44,148 bases of DNA. Source: Candidatus Andersenbacteria bacterium RIFCSPHIGHO2_12_FULL_45_11b (GTDB taxonomy: Bacteria > Patescibacteriota > Andersenbacteria > UBA10190). Below are positions 1 through 43,764 of this stretch, piece after piece. The position numbers and the translations under genes are program-made. The notes under the pieces were generated by a model, which did not search any database, was not told the DNA's origin, and worked only from the letters and a program-made list of their open reading frames with translations. Where the stretch lies: contig MHHS01000032.1 of the NCBI GenBank assembly GCA_001817115.1, forward strand, positions 11,801-55,948. The letters run 5' to 3'. Numbering within the stretch: the first letter of the stretch is position 1; each line of letters starts with the position of its first letter.

Positions 1-804
1 ATCAAAATCAGAAAATAAGCCATAGATAAATTTTTGCAATTCAGCATCGATGGTTAAAGAAAGGTCTTGTCCTGGAACTGGTCGCTTCTCTCCTAGGTTG
101 GTCTGCTCTTTGCCTGCCGCGTTTACTTCTGTATACGTAAAGCCGTGTTCGCCTCGCAAGGCTGCATCGTATTGCTGTTCAATACCCTGTTTGCCAGTGG
201 TGTCTGTGGCAATCAAGTTTGCGTTATCGTTTAGTTGTTTTGCTGTTACAGGATTCGTGTATCCAAGAACGTGTGCAAGCGATTGGCTGTATAAATATTT
301 GCGAACCAGAGATGACTCCAGAGATGTTCCAAGAATCGTTTGCGCATGTTGCTCCAACGCAAGTACGGTATTATGATCGAGGGCTTTTGCAATAAGAGTT
401 TCTTGTCCTGTTTTTCTTGTTCTAGTTAATGCTGCACGCACTCGATCTGGTTCTACTGATGGCAAAAGTGCAGCAAGGTTGTCTAGTAAATATGATTCGT
501 TTGCAACGCTGGGTAGATGGTTTGGTTTAAATACAAGGTCTGTACTGGAAATATTCTCAACAAGCTGTGTGCGATTGCGATCATAAATAACGCCACGGGG
601 CGCAGGGAGAATAATGCTATCAACTCGATTATGCTCCGCTTTCGCTCGAAACGAAGGGCCTTGCAGTATCTGTAGATATGCACCGCGACAGCCGATGACG
701 AGCAAAATGCCGATCAGTATAATATGCAACAAGCCATACCTCCTCCGCGCTGGCTTTGCAGTGGAGTGTATGTGTTCGATAATGTCGGGTGCCTGCATGT
801 TCAT
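1..804 (-). CDS. mrdA: penicillin-binding protein 2 (elongasome transpeptidase), N-terminal 268 codons; the gene runs off the left edge
   Basis: Not in the ORF track because it runs off the edge. My manual reverse-complement translation is open from ATG 804..802 to position 1: MNMQAPDIIEHIHSTAKPARRRYGLLHIILIGILLVIGCRGAYLQILQGPSFRAKAEHNRV..PRGVIYDRNRTQLV..GKQGIEQQYDAALRGEHGFTYTEVNAAG. It has a TM anchor plus the PBP dimerisation-domain pattern. It starts 2 nt after the mreD stop, in the classic mreBCD-mrdA context. Confidence 0.75.
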   Translation of the reverse strand, partial: MNMQAPDIIEHIHSTAKPARRRYGLLHIILIGILLVIGCRGAYLQILQGPSFRAKAEHNRVDSIILPAPRGVIYDRNRTQLVENISSTDLVFKPNHLPSVANESYLLDNLAALLPSVEPDRVRAALTRTRKTGQETLIAKALDHNTVLALEQHAQTILGTSLESSLVRKYLYSQSLAHVLGYTNPVTAKQLNDNANLIATDTTGKQGIEQQYDAALRGEHGFTYTEVNAAGKEQTNLGEKRPVPGQDLSLTIDAELQKFIYGLFSDFD

Positions 805-806
805 AT

Positions 807-1262
807 TTATGCGGATAGTTCATGCAAGGCAACGGCGAGTCCGTATGAGGCAATGCTTGTGCATATTATTTGCATGCTGGCAATAGGGAGCGGAATCGCA
901 TAAAGCGAAAAAGAGTGCGATATATTTTTTATAGCAATAAGAAAGGTGATTTGCAATGTTACCGTGGCGCATGTCATAAAAAAATACTTCCAAGACAGAT
1001 TTGTTTCAGGGCTTTTCCATAGCCATTGTGTGGCAAATGGCATCATGAATATAATGAGCATGGATCCGAACGGGAGCGTGCTCAAGAGTTCGAATAGAAG
1101 CGCGCTCGTTGCAATAAAGAACACTGGCGCAGGGGCAATGCTTGCGAGTATGATGGCAATTCCTGCTGGAGCAAGAAAAAGCGACACCGTATCGTAGCGG
1201 AATATGTGATGAAGCAACAGCATGCATATGATCGCGATTGTTCCTAAAAAAACCCGTTTCAT
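807..1262 (-). CDS. mreD: rod shape-determining protein MreD-like polytopic membrane protein
   Basis: 151 aa and very hydrophobic, with several predicted TM helices. Its ATG overlaps the mreC stop as ATGA, and it sits between mreC and PBP2. Confidence 0.55.
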   Translation of the reverse strand: MKRVFLGTIAIICMLLLHHIFRYDTVSLFLAPAGIAIILASIAPAPVFFIATSALLFELLSTLPFGSMLIIFMMPFATQWLWKSPETNLSWKYFFMTCATVTLQITFLIAIKNISHSFSLYAIPLPIASMQIICTSIASYGLAVALHELSA

Positions 1263-2023
1263 TTTGGGGCAAGTACTGTTACTGCTTTCACGGAATCGAT
1301 TGCGTATGGCAGCTCGATCGCTGCTTTCTGGTATGCTTCGTTCTCTGGTTTGCGTACAGAGGAGACAGCTCCCACCACTATTCCGTATGGGATTTGCTGG
1401 CCATTGCTGGTAGTAACAATGTTTTGTCCTGGAGATATTTCAGCATCTCTTGGAATCGTTTCCATGGAAAGCGATGTTTGAAAAAGGCTTATTAGAAGTC
1501 CTTGTGCGGGAGGTATTTCAGAATCTTTTGTTACTGTCTCTACTGTAATTGATGTATCTGGGTGAAATACTGTTTGTACGATTGCGGAATGCAGCGATAA
1601 TTGAGATACAAATCCTAGTAGTGCAGATCCGTGTACCACTACCACGTTGCCCGTTCCAATACCATCCGCAATGCCCTTGTTAATAACGTATTGCGCTTGC
1701 AGGGTGTCTATGGGCCTGCTGATTACATGCGCGGATATCTTGTGCATAGAATCGAATGCCGGAGCGGCTAGTTGGTCTCGAAGGCGCGCATAGTCTGCCA
1801 GCTCGCTTGTGAGCCGTATATTCTCAAGCGTAAGTCGTTTGAGTTGTTCTTCAGTTGATTGTGATGGCGAAGAGTCAGGAATGCGAAACACCTTCGATAC
1901 AACCCATATGATCTGGTCCCATGTGCGGTTTCTTGCATGTTGCATGATCGGCGTGAAGAACAATCCGGCAATAAGCAATGTGAGTCCGAATGCAGAGAGG
2001 GCGATAACAGCTGACTTTCTCAT
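1259..2023 (-). CDS. mreC: rod shape-determining protein MreC
   Basis: 254 aa with an N-terminal TM helix, a coiled coil (EEQLKRLTLENIRLTSELADYARLRDQL) and a beta-rich C-terminal domain. It lies directly downstream of mreB. Confidence 0.8.
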   Translation of the reverse strand: MRKSAVIALSAFGLTLLIAGLFFTPIMQHARNRTWDQIIWVVSKVFRIPDSSPSQSTEEQLKRLTLENIRLTSELADYARLRDQLAAPAFDSMHKISAHVISRPIDTLQAQYVINKGIADGIGTGNVVVVHGSALLGFVSQLSLHSAIVQTVFHPDTSITVETVTKDSEIPPAQGLLISLFQTSLSMETIPRDAEISPGQNIVTTSNGQQIPYGIVVGAVSSVRKPENEAYQKAAIELPYAIDSVKAVTVLAPK

Positions 2024-2032
2024 GTTCTTATA

Positions 2033-3091
2033 TTACTTGATCTTTGATCCGTGCACACTTGGCAATAACACTTCTTGTACGGCTTCAATGTCTTCTAGCA
2101 CGATACCTGTGCCTCGTACTACGGCAGTAAGCGGATCATCTGTAATATGGGTTCGTATTTGTGTGGCATCTGTGATAACGTCCGCAAGTCCTCGAAGCAA
2201 TGCTCCTCCGCCCGCCAGATAAATGCCCTGCTCAATAATGTCTGAGAGCAATTCAGGGGGAGTTTCCTCAATACATGCCCGTATAGCATCAACGATAATG
2301 CTGATAGAACGCTGCATTGCTTCTTTTGCCTGCGCGCCATTCATTACTACTTCTTTTGGCAAGCCGGTTACTAAGTCTCTTCCGCGGATCGGTGCTTCCA
2401 AGATTTCCATCGTATCCGTTGCGGAGCCAATACGAATTTTAATTTCTTCTGCAGTGCGTTCGCCGATTAACATGTTGAAATTATTGCGTGCGTATTGAAT
2501 TATATTTTCATTCAATTCATCGCCGGCAATTCGGAGCGTACGATTGGCTACGATCCCTCCTAGCGCAATAACGGATATCTCGGAAGTTCCTCCCCCGATA
2601 TCAACAATGATATTTCCCGTAGCTTCATGAATCGGCAATCGCGATCCGATAGCTGCTGCCATAGATTCTTCAATTAAAAATACTGCTCGTGCACCCGCGC
2701 GAAGGCTTGCTTCTTCAACAGCTCTTCGCTCCACTTCCGTAACGGAAGATGGAATGCCGATAACGACTCTTGGACGCGGCAGGAAATGAAATCCGTCTTC
2801 ATGTACTTTCTGAATGAAGTAAGAAAGCATTTGTTCTGTTACTTCAAAATCAGAGATAACACCGTGGCGCAAAGGGCGAATCGCGACAATGTGCGCTGGT
2901 GTTTTTCCAACCATGCGCTGCGCCTCTTTGCCGATTGCTAGAACCTCGTTTGTTTTTTTATTGATTGCAACTACGGAAGGTTCGTTAATAACAACGCCCT
3001 TTCCGCGCACGTACACGAGCGTATTTGCGGTGCCAAGATCGATACCGATATCTTGGGAGAATCGGCCGAAGAAATTATTTACGAACCCCAT
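2033..3091 (-). CDS. mreB: actin-like rod shape protein MreB
   Basis: 352 aa. Hallmark motifs are present: DIGIDLGTANTLVYVRGKGVVINEPSVVAI, DIGGGTSEISVIALGGIV and GIYLAGGGALLRGL. Confidence 0.97.
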   Translation of the reverse strand: MGFVNNFFGRFSQDIGIDLGTANTLVYVRGKGVVINEPSVVAINKKTNEVLAIGKEAQRMVGKTPAHIVAIRPLRHGVISDFEVTEQMLSYFIQKVHEDGFHFLPRPRVVIGIPSSVTEVERRAVEEASLRAGARAVFLIEESMAAAIGSRLPIHEATGNIIVDIGGGTSEISVIALGGIVANRTLRIAGDELNENIIQYARNNFNMLIGERTAEEIKIRIGSATDTMEILEAPIRGRDLVTGLPKEVVMNGAQAKEAMQRSISIIVDAIRACIEETPPELLSDIIEQGIYLAGGGALLRGLADVITDATQIRTHITDDPLTAVVRGTGIVLEDIEAVQEVLLPSVHGSKIK

Positions 3092-15160: not shown

Positions 15161-16303
15161 TTAAGTATTCCTTAGTTTCAGCAGATATTCAACTTGCCTT
15201 GTAATATCTTGACGGAATCTGTTTGTAGCAAATTTCATCCCCTGTTTTTGGAGATTTCCAGGGTCAAACGCCCGCTCAATGCGAAGAAAGTTCCGAATGG
15301 CTTCCGCAAGCGTTTCAGGGAGCTGTTCTTGGTATAAAATGCCATGTACGCCGCTGCGCACTATTTCTCTCGCCCCGCCCGTCCCATATGCGATTACGGG
15401 CGTACCGCAAGCAAGAGCTTCAGCAGCCGTCATGCCAAAATCTTCAATGCCCGGCTGAATCAATGCGCGTGCTCCGCGATACAGCTCCCGTAACTGTTCG
15501 CGCGAAACCGATCCGGCAAACGTTGTGTGTTTGCCTGCAAGGCGTTCTAGTTGCGCTCGATCGCTGCCTGTTCCAGCGATTATAAGTTTTAACCCCAACT
15601 TTTCTGCAACGGTGATTGCGTGGTCGAATTTCTTCTCGCGAGTCAACCTGCCAACGCATAGAAAATACGATTTGCGGGTAGGGCCAGGCTAGTAAAACTG
15701 CGTGTCAATCGGCGGATAAATAACAACACTCTCTTTCTGATAGTATGTTTTTATTTTTTGCTGCGTGTACTGCGAGTTTGCAACGTATGAAGTTGGGCGC
15801 TGCGCAGCCGCAAAATCTATCATGCGCAAAAAATGAAACAGCGCTCCTAATATGAAGCGAGAATGCGGACGACTCGCGAGAGCCGAACGCGATGCATCCC
15901 ATAAGTATCGTGTTGGCGTATGGCAATAGCACAAGTGAGGTATGTGCGATCTCGTAATAACGCCTTTTGCAAATCCGCTCGCACTGCTGATTACGATGTC
16001 ATACTTCGACAAATCAAATTGCTCTACTGCCTGCGGAAGAAATGGAAGCATTCTTCCGGGGTGTTTGCGAAACCATGCGGGCCATGCTTGCAGTGATGAA
16101 GTATGAACATCGTATGTTCTTCCATCAACGGTCAGCTTGGGAATATTTCCCGCATACAGCGCATATATATCAGCTTGCGGATACATGCGAATTAGTTCTT
16201 CTAGTACCAGCTCCGCTCCGCCTCTGCGTACCAGCTCATCGTGCACAATTGCAACCCGCAGGTTGCCCTGAGCTTGTCGAATGGGCGATTCTTTAAACAT
16301 CAT
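15161..16303 (-). pseudogene. GT4 (GT-B fold) glycosyltransferase interrupted by a single in-frame TAG at 15689-15691
   Basis: The N-terminal half (16303..15692) and the C-terminal half are in the same frame. Read-through gives ..VVIYPPIDTQFY*PGPTRKSYFLCVGRLTREKKFDHAI.., continuous across the usual inter-domain linker of GT4 enzymes. The C-terminal half carries the Glycos_transf_1 pattern (FGMTAAEALACGTPVIAYGTGGAREIV). TAG is a genuine stop elsewhere in the window. Confidence 0.7.
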
Positions 16304-16339: not shown

Positions 16340-18946
16340 TTATTTAATCCGCTCGTAAAACGTTATGGTATTAGATCCGTTAGAAATACCGTGGACGGAT
16401 TTCCAGTTCGCTTTGAGATCGTTATTGATATCGTCATATTCATTTAAGTATGAAAATTGAGTTTGCGCATCCAAAACAAACCAGTGCGAATCTTTAAAGG
16501 CCTGCACGAGGTTTTTCGTAGGCGGCAAAAACGTCTCGATGCGCGTTGGATTCGTCCGTGTAAATTCGTACGCATACCAGCGCGGATGAGAGATATTCAA
16601 AGCTGTTTGGTATCCGGCAAGGTATGGGATAAGCGTTGCGCCGGTAAATACTGATTCCCCGGTCGGAATATTTTGTTGCATCCATGCAGCAGCATCGTAT
16701 GCAGCCTGTTGCGAGAATGTTCCTGTGTGTTGAAATGAGTACGTAATAAAACTGGAAGCGGTTGCTGCCCATACGGAAATAATCAGGAATATCAAAAGCG
16801 ACGCGTATTTCAAAACGAGTGTTTTAGTGTGAAGGCTTCGCGCAATAAATGCTTCAAGCCCCACGCCAGCGATAATAGTAAGCGGCGGAATGAACTCGGA
16901 AATATAGTTTGCATGGAATTTGATCCACTTCGCGTAAAAGAACATCATGCTGCCAATCCATATGAGGCCGATGAGGCCACGCGTCCATGCGTTGCCTCTC
17001 CCTCCCCTCCCAGCCTCCCCTCGGGCAGGGGAGGAGTCGCGTTCTCTCCCCCTTACCAAGGGGGAATTGGAGGGGGTCAGATGCGGCAAGAAAATTGCTC
17101 CTACAAGCACCGCCCCAAACAGCCACCACAGTTCCGTAATCCCATATTTCATAAACTTTGCCCCTTCATATTGCGAGAAAAAATCCCAAGCCCACCAGAA
17201 GATGCTTAAAGGAATAAGCCATGCAAAGCGCGATAACCACGACCAGACCCCCTCGCGCTCCCCATTAGTAAGGGGGAGAAATAACGACTTAATCGCATCT
17301 TGCAAATAAAACCCAATACCCAGCATCGACAATAAAATTATCGGCAATGACTCTCTGAAAAATGGCGTCATGCCTTTGAGCGAATACTCACGTATCTGCT
17401 CAACTTGATCAGGATCGATGCTTGAAATGCCGTCCTCTGCGGAATTGATTCCAAGCGCTTCTGTAATACCTACGCCACCATATACGCTATATGCGTAGGT
17501 GAGAAACAAGGCGAGCACTCCCAAAAATCCTATTCCAACAAACACCGTATTTCTTAACCGTGCATTCCAGCTTTTCGATTGCGTAATGAGAAGTAGGATA
17601 ACCGTAAGCCCGAGCGCCAGCATGCTTTTGCGCGATGCTACGGCAAGTCCGATAATGCAACCGGCGAGGATGAGCCATTTTCGAGAAGCTTGCTTTTCTC
17701 GCAACGCATAAGCTAGTAATGCTATTCCAGACACGCCGAAGAACATGGCAACCGGTTGTGTGTGAACATATATCGTTGAAACAACTGCTGTCCCCATGCA
17801 TGCCCATAGCGCTGCAGAAATAAGCGCTGCTCGCGTTGTCCAAATACTTCTGACTAATAAAAATATTGGATACACGAGCGCAGAACCCGCGATAATAGAC
17901 GATAGGCGCCCTGCGAATGCGGTATGGCCAAGAATAGCTTCCCACAGCGCTATCCACGCAATCACGAGAGGCGCTTTCACATACCCGTCCCCTCCTGCAA
18001 AATGCCCGTGCAGTATCGACCATGCGTCATATAAATAATTTCCCTCATCGTCTGTAAATGGCAATGATAATGCGTAAAATATTCTTATAGTAACCGCGAT
18101 GATAGTCAGTACAAGAAGAATAATCCACGGCTTTATTTGTAATTTGCCAATATACCAGTCGCTGTCATCCCGGACTTGATCCGGGATCCACGTCGTCGAT
18201 TTTCTGGATTCCGGCTCGGAGGCCGGAATGACACGGCGAAATAATAACCAACATAAAAATATGCAGAAAATGCTCGGCAAAAATGCACCGGTCCATAGCG
18301 TGTACATGTGACGATTGTCTTGCCATGTATTTATAAACGTATGAATTGCGTTGCTGATGCTATGGTAGATGAATGTTCCTAGCGGCACCGAATATAGCGT
18401 TTGAAATGCAACGTCAATACTTTGCTTTCCAGATTTTTGAATAATGTCATCTGTAGCTGGCGCATTGTTAGATGCGCGGATGATATATGCCGTACCTTGT
18501 AAATATGTATCTTTATTATTCAAATCAATTGCAATCGCATTGCCTTTAACGCTTTCCGGAGAGTCAACCAAAAAGAAATATGTTTTCCCTTTGGAGTTTG
18601 CAATTGGAGGAAAAGAGAAGTTGTAAAATTGGTTATCACCGAACTTGCTTGCAGGAACAGATACTGTGCGAATATCGTTGCCCGATCGTACAGAATCTCG
18701 AAGATGTAATACAACAGGATGTGTATTATCGCGCCCGGAATATGTGGCAATCATTACTCCAATTCCAGCAAGGTCGTTCCGCTGTGCGACGATTGTTTGA
18801 CCAATAGATGAAGTACCGGTCAGTTCGCCGGAATTCAAGCTATGCTCTTCTTGCCTCTCTCCTACTTCCGGAACGTGAATAGCAACCAGCGCAATGGCAA
18901 TAATGAAAGCAACCCCAAAAGCAGTCTTTTTCCGCGATATTTGCAT
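16340..18946 (-). CDS. large membrane glycosyltransferase: N-terminal module fused to a GT39/ArnT-PMT-like polytopic domain
   Basis: 868 aa. From about residue 265 it shows the typical GT-C start (WIILLVLTIIAVTIRIFYALSLPFTDDEGNYLYDAW), followed by many TM helices and a C-terminal soluble domain. It contains three in-frame repeat insertions, listed as separate repeat features. Confidence 0.7.
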   Translation of the reverse strand: MQISRKKTAFGVAFIIAIALVAIHVPEVGERQEEHSLNSGELTGTSSIGQTIVAQRNDLAGIGVMIATYSGRDNTHPVVLHLRDSVRSGNDIRTVSVPASKFGDNQFYNFSFPPIANSKGKTYFFLVDSPESVKGNAIAIDLNNKDTYLQGTAYIIRASNNAPATDDIIQKSGKQSIDVAFQTLYSVPLGTFIYHSISNAIHTFINTWQDNRHMYTLWTGAFLPSIFCIFLCWLLFRRVIPASEPESRKSTTWIPDQVRDDSDWYIGKLQIKPWIILLVLTIIAVTIRIFYALSLPFTDDEGNYLYDAWSILHGHFAGGDGYVKAPLVIAWIALWEAILGHTAFAGRLSSIIAGSALVYPIFLLVRSIWTTRAALISAALWACMGTAVVSTIYVHTQPVAMFFGVSGIALLAYALREKQASRKWLILAGCIIGLAVASRKSMLALGLTVILLLITQSKSWNARLRNTVFVGIGFLGVLALFLTYAYSVYGGVGITEALGINSAEDGISSIDPDQVEQIREYSLKGMTPFFRESLPIILLSMLGIGFYLQDAIKSLFLPLTNGEREGVWSWLSRFAWLIPLSIFWWAWDFFSQYEGAKFMKYGITELWWLFGAVLVGAIFLPHLTPSNSPLVRGRERDSSPARGEAGRGGRGNAWTRGLIGLIWIGSMMFFYAKWIKFHANYISEFIPPLTIIAGVGLEAFIARSLHTKTLVLKYASLLIFLIISVWAATASSFITYSFQHTGTFSQQAAYDAAAWMQQNIPTGESVFTGATLIPYLAGYQTALNISHPRWYAYEFTRTNPTRIETFLPPTKNLVQAFKDSHWFVLDAQTQFSYLNEYDDINNDLKANWKSVHGISNGSNTITFYERIK
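16994..17078. repeat. family-B G/C-tract double-hairpin element (B1), inside the GT39 ORF
   Basis: Two hairpins are present: CCTCCCCtcgggcaGGGGAGG (17014-17034) and TCCCCCttaccaaGGGGGA (17047-17065). They are translated as PSNSPLVRGRERDSSPARGEAGRGGRGN. Confidence 0.7.
17248..17280. repeat. family-B single hairpin (B2), inside the GT39 ORF
   Basis: The hairpin CTCCCCattagtaaGGGGAG is translated as PLTNGEREGVW. Confidence 0.55.
18163..18233. repeat. family-A palindromic element (A2), inside the GT39 ORF
   Basis: Sequence: TGTCATCCCGGacttgatCCGGGATCCACGTCGTCGATTTTCTGGATTCCGGctcggagGCCGGAATGACA. It is translated as VIPASEPESRKSTTWIPDQVRDDS. Confidence 0.85.
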
Positions 18947-18975
18947 GGGTTTAGTATAACGGCAGGTTAGTAAGT

Positions 18976-19110
18976 TGTCATTGCGCGTCGCTTCCCCTCT
19001 CCTGTTCTGGGAGAGGGCGGGGGGGAGGGGCGTTCGGCGGTGTCATCCTGAACTTGATTCAGGATCCAGAAAATGGTGCCGTGGATCACAGCTCACGGGC
19101 CGGGATGACA
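18976..19110. repeat. composite intergenic repeat cluster (families C + B + A)
   Basis: Three pieces abut: TGTCATTGCGCGTCGC (C), CCCTCTCCtgttctgGGAGAGGG plus a G-tract (B3), and TGTCATCCTGaacttgattCAGGATCCAG...GGGCCGGGATGACA (A3, 19041-19110). The cluster lies between the rpsI stop and the GT39 start. Confidence 0.8.
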
Positions 19111-19115
19111 CTGTA

Positions 19116-43656: not shown

Positions 43657-43756
43657 CCTTCCCCCCAATTGGGGGGAAGGAGGGGATGGGGGCAGAACAT
43701 GCGGCATCACGTTTCACCAGCCCCCACCCTAACCCTCCCCCTGATTAGGGGGAGGG
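43657..43756. repeat. family-B three-hairpin element (B7)
   Basis: Hairpin 1 is CCTTCCCCCCaattGGGGGGAAGG (43657-43680). Hairpin 2 is GGGGGC..26 nt..GCCCCC (43688-43725). Hairpin 3 is CCCTCCCCCtgattaGGGGGAGGG (43733-43756). The architecture matches B6 with different stem sequences. Confidence 0.8.
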
Positions 43757-43764
43757 GAAATTCG

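What the first reader, a model, noticed from the sequence alone, without database searches (positions are those of the whole stretch)
16994..18233. One membrane glycosyltransferase ORF carries three in-frame repeat insertions, one at a possible gene-fusion junction
The 868-aa ORF reads through three elements:
- family-A copy A2 (18163-18233), translated as VIPASEPESRKSTTWIPDQVRDDS
- family-B double hairpin B1 (16994-17078), translated as PSNSPLVRGRERDSSPARGEAGRGGRGN
- family-B hairpin B2 (17248-17280), translated as PLTNGEREGVW

A2 lies exactly between a ~240-aa N-terminal module (TM helix, soluble domain, TM helix) and the point where GT39/ArnT-like proteins normally begin (..WIILLVLTIIAVTIRIFYALSLPFTDDEGNY). 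The element may therefore have fused two formerly separate ORFs, or replaced a stop/start junction. The two B insertions fall in predicted loops between TM helices.
Basis: partly seen in the sequence, partly recalled or inferred. Interest (0 to 1): 0.6.

Follow-up and report, generated by a model that had tools for sequence, protein, structure and literature searches.

The report
Repeat DNA inserted in glycosyltransferase gene
An intact membrane glycosyltransferase gene of a tiny "candidate phyla" bacterium carries three in-frame insertions of the genome's own hairpin repeats in short predicted cytoplasmic loops; this is a known kind of selfish-DNA insertion, and it did not fuse two genes.

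Summary
The 868-aa ORF (16340-18946, minus strand) reads through three repeat elements at the stated coordinates, with the stated translations.

The fusion reading does not hold. All 116 other full-length homologues aligned are single ORFs with the same N-terminal module plus GT-C core. The 28 orthologues of the near clade have a plain 12-15 residue turn where A2 sits. A separate-gene arrangement exists only in a distant relative of the same class, so the fusion is far older than A2.

- **Family A** fits every sequence feature of CGTC/TGTC-tagged REPs (Di Nocera 2013), the class that includes Rickettsia RPE-4 and RPE-6. A2 is an inverted dimer.
- **Family B** is a hairpin plus mirror G-tail, the intrastrand-triplex motif type (Holder 2015). 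B1 is an inverted dimer and B2 a single unit.

Both families are abundant here (about 70 and 116 units in 884 kb). About a fifth of family A loci and over a third of B units lie inside ORFs, including murD, pheT, uvrC and tRNA synthetase genes. The nearest relative has almost none, and its orthologue lacks all three inserts.

The inserts land in three very short, K/R-rich, predicted cytoplasmic turns and are modelled as disordered. The B1 loop carries such units at four or more separate places in the orthologue tree.

This scan has already reported the same phenomenon on other DNA, including murD of this genome. It is a new member of a known kind.

The parts
16340..18946 (-). Host gene: 868-aa membrane glycosyltransferase. 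It has an N-terminal TM helix, a beta-sandwich domain and a second TM helix (aa 1-239), then a GT-C/GT39-like core with a C-terminal soluble domain.
   Evidence: ORF. Pfam PMT_2 at aa 325-483, E 5e-13, 50 bits against a cut-off of 26.1. AlphaFold model with pTM 0.73. Foldseek matches to AglB, ArnT, PglB and STT3. Conserved DDEGNY motif (D300, E301 and G302 invariant in alignment A1).
18163..18233 (.). A2: a 71-nt inverted dimer of two TGTC-tagged REP units. The units are 18163-18190 (read on +) and 18205-18233 (read on -), with tags outward, CCA tails inward and a 14-nt spacer. Translated as VIPASEPESRKSTTWIPDQVRDD.
   Evidence: Unit anatomy is TGTC / ATCCCGGA-CTTGA-TCCGGGAT / CCA and TGTC / ATTCCGGC-CTCCGA-GCCGGAAT / CCA. 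nhmmer E 3e-18. RNA fold -31.9 kcal/mol, z -3.4. Absent from all orthologues.
18146..18162 (-). Extra 16-17 nt (GCGACTGGTATATTGG, encoding DWYIG). Together with A2 it makes up the 87-nt (29-codon) insertion relative to orthologues. Its origin is unexplained.
   Evidence: The DNA alignment gap is 87 nt against L004 and L005. No other A copy has a matching flank, and there is no target-site duplication.
16994..17078 (.). B1: an inverted dimer of two triplex-motif (hairpin plus mirror G-tail) units. The units are 17047-17077 (read on +) and 17003-17034 (read on -, the coding strand). Translated as TPSNSPLVRGRERDSSPARGEAGRGGRG.
   Evidence: Both units pass the motif search for C-arm, loop, G-arm, spacer and mirror tail. 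RNA fold -47 kcal/mol. There is a 17-residue gap in the G006 orthologue. pLDDT is below 50 for aa 626-648.
17248..17280 (-). B2: a single triplex-motif unit on the coding strand (TCTCCCCC-TTACTAAT-GGGGAG-CGC-GAGGGG). Translated as FLPLTNGEREGV. It replaces the KKTKA turn of the orthologues.
   Evidence: Motif search gives 17249-17279. Net +21 nt against L004 and L005. The same peptide type, LPLTKGELEGV, recurs in other genes.
19041..19111 (.). Intergenic A-family dimer directly downstream of rpsI (S9) and upstream of the glycosyltransferase gene.
   Evidence: E 5.5e-17. The S9-to-GT spacer is 169 nt here against 46-47 nt in L002 and L017.
18995..19028 (+). Intergenic triplex-motif unit (CCCTCTCC-TGTTCTG-GGAGAGGG-CGG-GGGGGAGG) between the A dimer and the gene start.
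   Evidence: Motif search.

Best explanation
The three elements are passenger insertions of two families of small hairpin-forming dispersed repeats that have proliferated in this Candidatus Andersenbacteria (Patescibacteria/CPR) genome.

**What the families are**
- Family A is a CGTC/TGTC-tagged REP. A2 is an inverted REP dimer.
- Family B is a hairpin followed by a mirror-image G-rich tail, a potential intrastrand-triplex motif. B1 is an inverted dimer and B2 a monomer.

**How they came to be in the gene**
The elements enter DNA by a mechanism that is still unknown. No transposase gene in this genome is flanked by them. Inside a needed gene, only copies that keep the frame, contain no stop codon and fall in a structurally permissive place survive.

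Here all three sit in what are, in insert-free orthologues, very short (5, 6 and 10 residue) K/R-rich turns between transmembrane helices. These turns lie on the predicted cytoplasmic face, away from the extracytoplasmic catalytic loop (DDEGNY) and the C-terminal domain. The elements are translated into hydrophilic, probably disordered loop extensions of 29, 7 and about 17 residues.

The two-module architecture (N-terminal TM, beta domain, TM, then the GT-C core) is ancestral to the family and was not created by A2.

**Shown:** the repeat families and their anatomy, insertion relative to orthologues, a preserved frame in independent assemblies, and low model confidence over A2 and B1.

**Inferred:** cytoplasmic placement, neutrality of the inserts, and the selective filter.
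For: **Family A anatomy**
- Tag TGTC in 55 units and CGTC in 18, an 8-bp stem starting AT, a loop mostly of 5 nt, and the tail CCA in 66 of 79 units.
- At least 13 different stem sequences recur.
- This matches the written definition of CGTC REPs (PMC3733652, section 6).

**Family B anatomy**
- 116 units against 1 in a shuffled genome.
- Same three-segment plan as the TMECO consensus CCCTCNCCC-N3-6-GGGNGAGGG-N3-GGGNGAGGG (PMC4666352).

**Orthologues lack the inserts**
- Protein and DNA alignments.
- The genome-wide empty-site comparison with the nearest species G006 shows gaps of 29, 7 and 17 residues at A2, B2 and B1. It shows similar gaps in murD, uvrC, pheT, the G6PD gene and others.
- G006 has 0 B units and 1 A unit. 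Both families are patchy within the genus.

**Other real genes carry in-frame copies.** pheT, a G6PD-6PGD fusion, a class I tRNA synthetase, uvrC, GT4, Wzy_C proteins and cysS.

**Structure.** pLDDT is below 50 over aa 240-269 and 626-648. Aa 557-564 form a coil between helices.

**Topology**
- GT-C fold.
- A 13-TM count anchored on the external DDEGNY loop and C-terminal domain.
- In insert-free P0003, the loops assigned as inside hold 15 K/R in 46 residues. The loops assigned as outside hold 8 in 114.

**The sequence is real.** An identical independent assembly and a second allele both carry all three inserts.

**No dedicated transposase.** The only Y1 transposase genes are flanked by other hairpins.
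Against: - No transcript or protein data are available, so translation of the inserts is assumed from the intact frame and from the Rickettsia precedent.
- A2 itself is 71 nt, not a multiple of three. The extra 16 nt that restore the frame are unexplained.
- The topology is inferred from helix counting and charge bias, not from a dedicated predictor or an experiment.
- At the B1 loop several orthologues carry similar units or remnants. B1 may therefore be a renewed or converted old insertion rather than a fresh one.
- The neutrality of the inserts is not tested.
Confidence: 0.85

Rival explanations
1. A2 created the gene. The element fused a formerly separate N-terminal-module gene and a GT-C gene, or overwrote their stop/start junction.
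For: A2 lies exactly at the module boundary. In one distant relative of the same class (G025) the two modules are separate genes overlapping by 11 nt, of 225 aa and 565 aa.
Against: All 116 other full-length homologues aligned are single ORFs with both modules and no A element at the junction. In the same-genus genomes where both modules were found, one open frame spans them, and the alignment breaks only at query residues 238-270. The fused state extends to the sister family f2, with single ORFs of 819-836 aa.
Confidence: 0.02
2. The loop sequences are ancestral and were deleted in relatives. At B1 at least, an old insertion has been kept or renewed (by gene conversion from other copies or by re-insertion) rather than newly acquired.
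For: **At the B1 loop**
- P0002, P0018, P0019, P0021, P0022, P0025 and P0028 carry triplex-motif units.
- P0026 and P0030 carry remnant-like peptides of the type TPS..SP..GEKS, in the same orientation and frame.
- The insert-free P0003 loop (TAQESKSERRN) weakly resembles a decayed unit.

**Elsewhere in G006.** Although G006 is now almost repeat-free, it holds REP-like remnant peptides such as PRLDSRLRGNDK at a site where G000 has two B units.
Against: - For A2 and B2, none of the near-clade orthologues shows any trace of the elements.
- At B1 the units in different lineages belong to different subfamilies and differ in number. They sit at four or more separate places in the tree.
- The B1 unit 17047-17077 keeps a perfect 7-bp stem and is close in sequence to other copies in the genome, although the orthologues have diverged by 20-50% in protein sequence.
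Confidence: 0.15
3. The inserts are functional additions selected in this lineage. They might add Arg/Gly-rich cytoplasmic loops that bind a partner, or mRNA hairpins placed after TM segments that slow translation or stabilise the transcript.
For: - All three lie on the same predicted face of the protein, directly after TM helices.
- A2 and B1 can form strong mRNA structures, -31.9 and -47 kcal/mol.
- The same loops are used repeatedly in relatives.
Against: - The closest orthologues do without the inserts.
- The same elements sit in unrelated soluble enzymes and in intergenic DNA.
- B2 removes the conserved KKxK turn rather than adding to it.
- The elements are no more stop-free than random windows. 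They are therefore not built for coding.
- The fold z-scores of B1 and B2 are unremarkable, -1.8 and 0.1.
Confidence: 0.08
4. Assembly artefact: repeat-induced misjoins of metagenomic reads produced an apparent read-through ORF.
For: The genome is a 51-contig metagenome-assembled genome, and repeats often break or misjoin assemblies. Read-level checks were not possible.
Against: The same 868-aa protein is found on 7 contigs, and its cluster entry lists NCBI, JGI/IMG and ENA among the sources. A one-residue variant on 3 more contigs keeps all inserts. The ENA contig L001 is identical across the gene yet differs at one base nearby, so it is a separate assembly. All three inserts keep the frame.
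Confidence: 0.02

Closest known systems
CGTC-tagged REP repeats (families CGTC-1 and CGTC-2; Di Nocera, De Gregorio and Rocco 2013, PMC3733652), including Neisseria dRS3 and Rickettsia conorii RPE-6 and RPE-4
   Same: - Terminal tag CGTC or its TGTC variant, an 8-bp stem beginning AT, a 4-5 nt loop and a CCA tail.
- Inverted dimers, high copy number and varied stems.
- No dedicated transposase.
- Copies inside genes, where dimers encode 20-30 residues. Some ORFs carry more than one insert, and repair and tRNA synthetase genes are among the hosts.
   Different: - The host is a Patescibacteria (CPR) genome. The paper lists five phyla, mostly Alphaproteobacteria.
- TGTC is the main tag here, and one A2 loop is 6 nt.
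- I did not compare the sequences directly with Rickettsia or Neisseria copies.
Rickettsia palindromic elements (RPEs; Ogata et al. 2000, as summarised in PMC10969869)
   Same: Palindromic repeats inserted in frame in unrelated housekeeping genes of a small-genome bacterium. They are tolerated because they fall in surface or loop regions.
   Different: The classic RPE-1 type elements are about 150 bp and encode a conserved peptide. The elements here are 33-85 nt, belong to two different families, and are read in several frames.
Intrastrand triplex motifs TMECO / BoxC / PIT elements of E. coli (Holder et al. 2015, PMC4666352; Hoyne and Maher, as cited there)
   Same: - Three-segment plan: pyrimidine arm, loop, complementary purine arm, a 2-5 nt loop, and a mirror purine arm.
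- G/C-rich.
- Frequent inverted pairs of two unit types.
- Strong over-representation.
- Association with locally variable sequence.
   Different: - In E. coli K-12 the 23 copies are all intergenic. Here 45 of 116 units lie inside crude ORF calls, and three lie in this one gene.
- The arms are 7-9 nt (CTCCCCC or CCCCTCC) rather than CCCTCNCCC.
- Triplex formation is untested for these sequences.
REPINs mobilised by RAYT transposases (as discussed in PMC3733652)
   Same: Inverted REP doublets able to fold into one long hairpin. Copy number is bloom-like and differs between close relatives.
   Different: No RAYT flanked by these repeats was found. The one RAYT-like gene (contig C24) is flanked by a different palindrome, and the other Y1 gene is an IS200-type element with its own hairpins.
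GT-C fold glycosyltransferases of the ArnT / PMT (GT39, Pfam PMT_2) type (the host protein)
   Same: Pfam PMT_2 match, GT-C fold by Foldseek (ArnT TM-score 0.53 on the target), an acidic motif in the first external loop, about 13 core TM helices and a C-terminal soluble domain.
   Different: There is an extra N-terminal module (TM helix, beta-sandwich domain, TM helix) with no Pfam match. Donor and acceptor substrates are unknown, and no PDB sequence match was found.

Membership tests
CGTC-tagged REP (Di Nocera 2013) | Unpaired terminal tetranucleotide CGTC (TGTC or CCTC variants allowed) | tested here: met
   Both A2 units carry TGTC. Genome-wide the tags are TGTC 55 and CGTC 18, out of 79 units. 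The definition was read.
CGTC-tagged REP (Di Nocera 2013) | Stem of 8-9 bp with A and T in the first and second positions | tested here: met
   The A2 stems are ATCCCGGA/TCCGGGAT and ATTCCGGC/GCCGGAAT, both perfect 8-bp stems. At least 13 stem variants, all starting AT, recur in the genome. The search itself required AT at the start of the stem.
CGTC-tagged REP (Di Nocera 2013) | Loop of 4 nt (family 1) or 5 nt (families 2-4) | tested here: met
   The A2 loops are 5 nt (CTTGA) and 6 nt (CTCCGA). Genome-wide, loop lengths are 5 nt in 44 units, 6 nt in 19 and 4 nt in 11. The best fit is CGTC-2, with some longer loops.
CGTC-tagged REP (Di Nocera 2013) | Short unpaired tail, consensus CCA | tested here: met
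   CCA in 66 of 79 units and in both A2 units.
CGTC-tagged REP (Di Nocera 2013) | Units mostly arranged as inverted dimers | tested here: met
   A2 and 31 of the 49 nhmmer loci span both units. I could not tell whether the paper's 'HH' label corresponds to the tags-outward arrangement seen here.
Rickettsia palindromic elements | Palindromic repeat inserted in frame in protein-coding genes, absent from orthologues | tested here: met
Rickettsia palindromic elements | Sequence relatedness to a named RPE family | not tested
   No Rickettsia sequences were compared. The link rests on the paper's statement that RPE-6 and RPE-4 are CGTC-1 and CGTC-4.
Intrastrand triplex motif repeats (TM / TMECO / PIT) | Pyrimidine arm, loop, complementary purine arm, short loop, then a third purine arm that mirrors the second | tested here: met
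   All three B units in the gene pass this search with at most one mismatch. There are 116 units in the genome against 1 in a shuffle. The consensus was read.
Intrastrand triplex motif repeats (TM / TMECO / PIT) | Forms an intramolecular triplex as single-stranded DNA | not testable with these tools
   This needs CD or NMR on oligonucleotides, as in PMC4666352.
MITE (miniature inverted-repeat transposable element) | Terminal inverted repeats with a target-site duplication | tested here: not met
   The whole A2 element is an inverted repeat. However, the longest direct repeat between its two flanks is 5 nt, and no flank is shared with other copies.
REPIN / RAYT system | A RAYT (Y1 transposase) gene flanked by the same REPs | tested here: not met
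   There are two Y1_Tnp matches. C51 is IS200-like with its own subterminal hairpins. C24 is flanked by TTCTAACACCGGGTGTTAGAA. Neither is flanked by A or B units.
GT-C / GT39 (Pfam PMT_2) glycosyltransferase (host gene) | PMT_2 profile match above the curated cut-off, and a GT-C fold | tested here: met
   50 bits against a cut-off of 26.1. Foldseek E 8e-8 to 5e-5 against AglB, ArnT, STT3 and PglB.
GT-C / GT39 (Pfam PMT_2) glycosyltransferase (host gene) | Conserved acidic motif in the first extracytoplasmic loop | tested here: met
   DDEGNY at 299-304, with D300, E301, G302, N303 and Y304 invariant in 19 sequences. Its catalytic role is inferred from the family, not tested.

The most novel reading that the evidence does not exclude
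The repeats may not land at random and then get filtered. Particular short loop-coding sites may be colonised again and again by an undescribed targeting or copy-renewal mechanism. Candidates are insertion at A-rich Lys-codon tracts or at remnants of earlier copies, or gene conversion between dispersed copies.

Three observations prompt this reading:
- The B1 loop holds different triplex-motif units at four or more separate places in the orthologue tree.
- One site holds two B units in this genome but a REP-like remnant in its nearest relative.
- In the empty alleles, all three target sites in this gene are K/R-rich turns, and two of them read as A-rich Lys-codon runs in the DNA alignment (AAAAAAATG, AAGAAAACAAAAG).

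If true, these elements would be a mobile system that lives largely inside coding loops of CPR genomes, with a mobilising enzyme still to be found.
Probability: 0.2. Interest if true: 0.6.

Novelty: new member of a known kind. Interest (0 to 1): 0.3.

Why it matters
**Annotation.** The 868-aa ORF is one real gene, and its odd low-complexity stretches are repeat-derived loop extensions. They should not be read as domain linkers, fusion scars or frameshift artefacts. The same applies to dozens of other genes in this genome.

**Biology.**
- This adds a clear case from a membrane protein. It carries three inserts, all in minimal turns on the predicted cytoplasmic side, and an essentially repeat-free sister species supplies the empty sites.
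- It extends the picture that CGTC-type REPs and triplex-motif repeats colonise coding loops in very small Patescibacteria genomes.
- I found no paper in the searched library that reports this for the group.
- The pair G000/G006 is a convenient natural experiment for studying how such repeats spread and decay.

The phenomenon itself is known, from Rickettsia RPEs and from intragenic REPs. This scan has already reported it several times, including for murD in this same genome.

Tried and rejected
- **Rfam.** A scan of the whole window at gathering thresholds gave no match.
- **PDB by sequence.** A profile of the orthologues gave no match. The fold search was needed instead.
- **Read support.** Independent assemblies were used instead.
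- **Dedicated transposase.** I searched for Y1 transposases. Neither gene is flanked by A or B units, so a REPIN/RAYT reading was rejected.
- **A2 flanks.** I looked for a target-site duplication or a shared flank that would explain the extra 16 nt next to A2. Only chance-level matches turned up.
- **Coding design.** I asked whether the elements are built to be stop-free. Open frames are no more frequent than in random windows (A dimers 0.44 against 0.47, B units 0.69 against 0.70), so this was rejected.
- **TM topology.** A straight count of model helices from both ends gave an odd/even conflict. I resolved it by treating helix 326-339 as an interfacial helix of the first external loop, as in ArnT. 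This step is an inference.
- **Crude ORF calls.** The calls used for the census include some doubtful ORFs made largely of repeats. Examples are several of about 315 aa, some of which have no counterpart in G006. The count of 45 intragenic B units is therefore an upper estimate.
- **Promoter and terminator scan.** The scan around the gene gave nothing above the shuffles.
Full report
**1. The observation**

The minus-strand ORF 16340..18946 encodes 868 residues. Pfam places a PMT_2 (GT39/ArnT-like) match at residues 325-483, with 50 bits against a cut-off of 26.1. All named homologues are from Candidatus Andersenbacteria, Patescibacteria or unclassified bacteria. The assembly is 883,870 bases in 51 contigs with 45% G+C.

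**2. The host protein and the fusion question**

I aligned 116 other full-length homologues of 768-935 aa; most cover 94 to 100% of the query, and the lowest covers 68%.

- Each is a single protein with the same N-terminal module.
- In an alignment of 19 of them, the 18 homologues have a gap of 29 columns exactly at A2 (...LFRR[VIPAS...DWYIG]KLQIKPW against ...LFRF-KKMPKTW).
- In the wider alignment, the 28 orthologues of the near clade have a 12-15 residue stretch here, 15 in 27 of them. More distant ones have an unrelated 11-33 residue loop, most often 24.
- Six-frame searches of 30 relatives found both modules in one open frame in all 13 same-genus genomes. The match is interrupted only at query residues 238-270.

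A2 therefore did not fuse two genes.

In G025, a different family of the same class, a 225-aa gene (TM helix, beta domain, TM helix) overlaps by 11 nt the start of a separate 565-aa GT-C gene beginning MKNKKEPYIIISVVF.... The fusion, or the fission in G025, is thus old and unrelated to A2.

An AlphaFold model built on the alignment (mean pLDDT 74.6, pTM 0.73) gives:
- helix 5-22;
- a beta domain at 24-188;
- helices 189-206 and 212-239;
- a helical bundle to residue 737;
- a mixed C-terminal domain.

Foldseek finds the GT-C enzymes AglB, ArnT, STT3 and PglB.

**3. Family A**

Each unit reads TGTC, then an 8-bp stem starting AT, a 4-6 nt loop, the complementary arm and CCA.

A2 is two such units in inverted orientation, with the tags outward and a 14-nt spacer, 71 nt in all.

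Genome-wide counts:
- 79 such units against 16 in a shuffled genome;
- tags TGTC 55 and CGTC 18;
- tail CCA in 66;
- 13 or more different stems that recur. The search required pairing (at most one mismatch in 8), so the complementarity itself is not an independent finding.

This matches, feature by feature, the written definition of CGTC-tagged REPs. [quoted passage not shown]

That paper also equates CGTC-1 and CGTC-4 with Rickettsia RPE-6 and RPE-4. It reports intragenic copies whose dimers encode 20-30 residues, sometimes twice in one ORF, and notes that CGTC REPs lack a dedicated transposase.

Here the only Y1 transposase genes are an IS200-like element and a RAYT-like gene, each flanked by unrelated hairpins.

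The pattern GTCATYCC...GGRATCCA occurs in 54 of 201 sampled Patescibacteria genomes, with no hit for the reversed control. This genome has 45 copies and its nearest relative G006 has none.

**4. Family B**

Each unit is a C-rich arm, a 4-9 nt loop, the complementary G-rich arm, a 1-5 nt spacer and a G-rich tail that mirrors the second arm. An example is CTCCCCC-TTACCAA-GGGGGAG-CTG-GAGGGGG.

A search for exactly this architecture finds 116 units in the genome and 1 in a shuffled genome. It picks up 17047-17077 (+), 17003-17034 (-) and 17249-17279 (-). B1 is therefore an inverted dimer and B2 a monomer.

The plan is that of the intrastrand triplex motifs of Holder et al. 2015. Their TMECO consensus is CCCTCNCCC-N3-6-GGGNGAGGG-N3-GGGNGAGGG. 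These motifs often occur as inverted pairs of two types, and in E. coli K-12 they are always intergenic (PMC4666352). The lead to this paper came from earlier notes of this scan. I checked the architecture myself. Triplex formation cannot be tested here.

Within the order the exact pattern is patchy. There are 54 copies here, 60 in G001, 34 in G008, none in G006 and one in G002.

**5. The elements are insertions**

DNA alignment with the two closest species shows an 87-nt gap at A2, a net 21 nt at B2 and about 50 nt at B1.

I retrieved the whole G006 genome piecewise (913,537 bases). By my own searches it has no B unit and one A unit with a CCA tail.

Aligning each repeat-bearing ORF of this genome with its G006 counterpart gave the following:
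- Gaps at A2 (29 residues), B2 (7) and B1 (17).
- Gaps at the elements in murD, uvrC, pheT, the G6PD-6PGD gene, Wzy-type genes and many others.
- A few sites in G006 hold short remnant-like peptides. For example, PRLDSRLRGNDK sits where this genome has two B units.

The families are therefore old in the genus and go through gain and decay.

Pfam confirms that several hosts are real genes: pheT, G6PD-6PGD, a class I tRNA synthetase, uvrC, GT4, Wzy_C proteins and cysS.

With crude ORF calls covering 87% of the genome, 11 of 49 A loci and 45 of 116 B units are internal to ORFs. This gene carries the most of any clearly real gene. The count is an upper estimate, because some ORFs are doubtful.

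**6. Where the inserts sit**

The model has pLDDT below 50 for 240-269 (A2) and 626-648 (B1). Residues 557-564 (B2) form a coil between two long helices.

I anchored the topology on established GT-C features: the acidic first loop and the C-terminal domain lie outside, and the core has 13 TM helices as in ArnT. On that basis A2 falls in the loop before core TM1, B2 between TM8 and TM9, and B1 between TM10 and TM11. All three are on the cytoplasmic side.

In the insert-free orthologue P0003 these three loops are only 5, 6 and 10 residues long (KKMPK, KKTKAL, AQESKSERRN). The loops assigned as inside hold 15 K/R in 46 residues, against 8 in 114 for the short loops assigned as outside. The placement is an inference, because one model helix had to be treated as interfacial to make the count consistent.

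**7. Chance, frame and structure**

- The elements are no more stop-free than random windows of the same length. Three of six frames are open for A2, five for B1 and four for B2. Read-through is therefore best explained by selection removing disruptive insertions, not by a coding design.
- The same peptides recur in other genes. LPLTKGELEGV, TPSSSPLVRGR and VIPA...W(I/M)PDQ each appear repeatedly.
- A2 is 71 nt. The 16 further nucleotides that complete 29 codons have no counterpart elsewhere, and there is no target duplication. This remains unexplained.
- As RNA, A2 and B1 can form long hairpins of -31.9 kcal/mol (z -3.4) and -47 kcal/mol (z -1.8). B2 is unremarkable.

**8. The B1 loop is reused**

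DNA of same-genus orthologues shows triplex-motif units of other subfamilies in this same loop. L017 has one unit, L006 an inverted pair, and L007 and L009 one unit each, while L004, L005 and L008 have none.

On a maximum-likelihood tree of 31 orthologues, with the three loops masked, the unit-bearing proteins fall at four or more separate places. These are P0001 alone, P0002 alone, the pair P0022/P0025, and a clade where the unit looks ancestral and decays.

Repeated gain is the simpler reading. An old insertion with renewal is not excluded.

**9. Reliability of the sequence**

The protein is found on 7 contigs, and its cluster entry lists NCBI, JGI/IMG and ENA among the sources. A one-residue variant on three more contigs keeps all inserts.

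The ENA contig L001 is identical over the gene and differs from the window at one base in about 4.1 kb.

**10. Verdict**

- The fusion interpretation is not supported.
- The elements belong to two described kinds of bacterial repeats, and in-frame residence of such repeats is known from Rickettsia and from intragenic REPs (PMC3733652; PMC10969869).
- I found no paper reporting it for Patescibacteria.
- This scan has already noted it on other DNA and for murD of this same genome.

The finding is a well-documented new member of a known kind. Its one open point of interest is the repeated use of the same loops.

Noticed in passing
window 15690 (gene 15161-16303, minus strand): The downstream GT4 glycosyltransferase is split into two ORFs (204 aa and 161 aa) by a single-base difference from the independent assembly L001. 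The window reads TAG and L001 reads TCG (Ser), which gives one 380-aa gene there. This is either a strain-level nonsense allele or a base error.
   Followed up: partly
L028 (G025:C3:8500-15000), ORFs 2180..2857 (-) and 493..2190 (-): In a relative of the same class but another family, the N-terminal module (225 aa) and the GT-C core (565 aa) are separate genes overlapping by 11 nt. Two further stand-alone GT-C paralogues lie next to them. I could not tell whether this is an ancestral split, a fission or a frameshift.
   Followed up: partly
window 18380-18875 (aa 24-188 of the ORF); also G000:C41:1402-1632: The N-terminal extracytoplasmic beta-sandwich domain has no Pfam match. It recurs at the N-terminus of other large ORFs (about 640-890 aa) in this genome and in relatives. 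Its weak fold matches are to phage baseplate, capsid jelly-roll and lectin-like domains.
   Followed up: no
G000:C24:1489-2200 and G000:C51:16500-17020: C24 holds a RAYT-like Y1 transposase gene bracketed by identical palindromes (TTCTAACACCGGGTGTTAGAA). C51 holds an IS200-like element with CCACGGGCTTACGCCCGTGGCATG-type subterminal hairpins. Neither is related to families A or B.
   Followed up: partly
G000:C25:4204-4280 against the G006 orthologue: The same codon position in a 702-aa protein of unknown family holds two triplex-motif units in this genome. In the otherwise repeat-free G006 it holds a REP-like remnant peptide (PRLDSRLRGNDK). Two different repeat families have therefore used one site.
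   Followed up: partly
Genome-wide, for example G000:C6:421-495, C8:28809-28886 and C29:1720-1797: The usual full B element is an inverted heterodimer of two unit types (CTCCCCC...GGGGGAG...GAGGGGG and CCCCTCC...GGAGGGG...GGGGAGG) about 15 nt apart. This echoes the type A plus type B pairs described for E. coli TMECO.
   Followed up: partly
window 43657-43759 and G000:C1:2991-3080, C8:24354-24442: A further B subfamily has an AATT-centred hairpin followed by three or four G-runs (for example CCCCAATTGGGGAGAGGGAGGGGGTGAGGG). It could also form a G-quadruplex.
   Followed up: no
window 18953-18981 (minus strand): A promoter-like site (ATGACA-17 nt-TATACT, 10 of 12 matches) ends 7 nt before the ATG of the glycosyltransferase gene. 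It lies between the intergenic repeat copies and the start codon. The number of such sites in the region is not above the shuffles.
   Followed up: no
window 16829-17309 (plus strand): Two antisense ORFs of 126 and 120 aa overlap B1 and B2. They probably exist only because the G/C-rich repeats lack stop codons, so they should not be annotated as genes.
   Followed up: no
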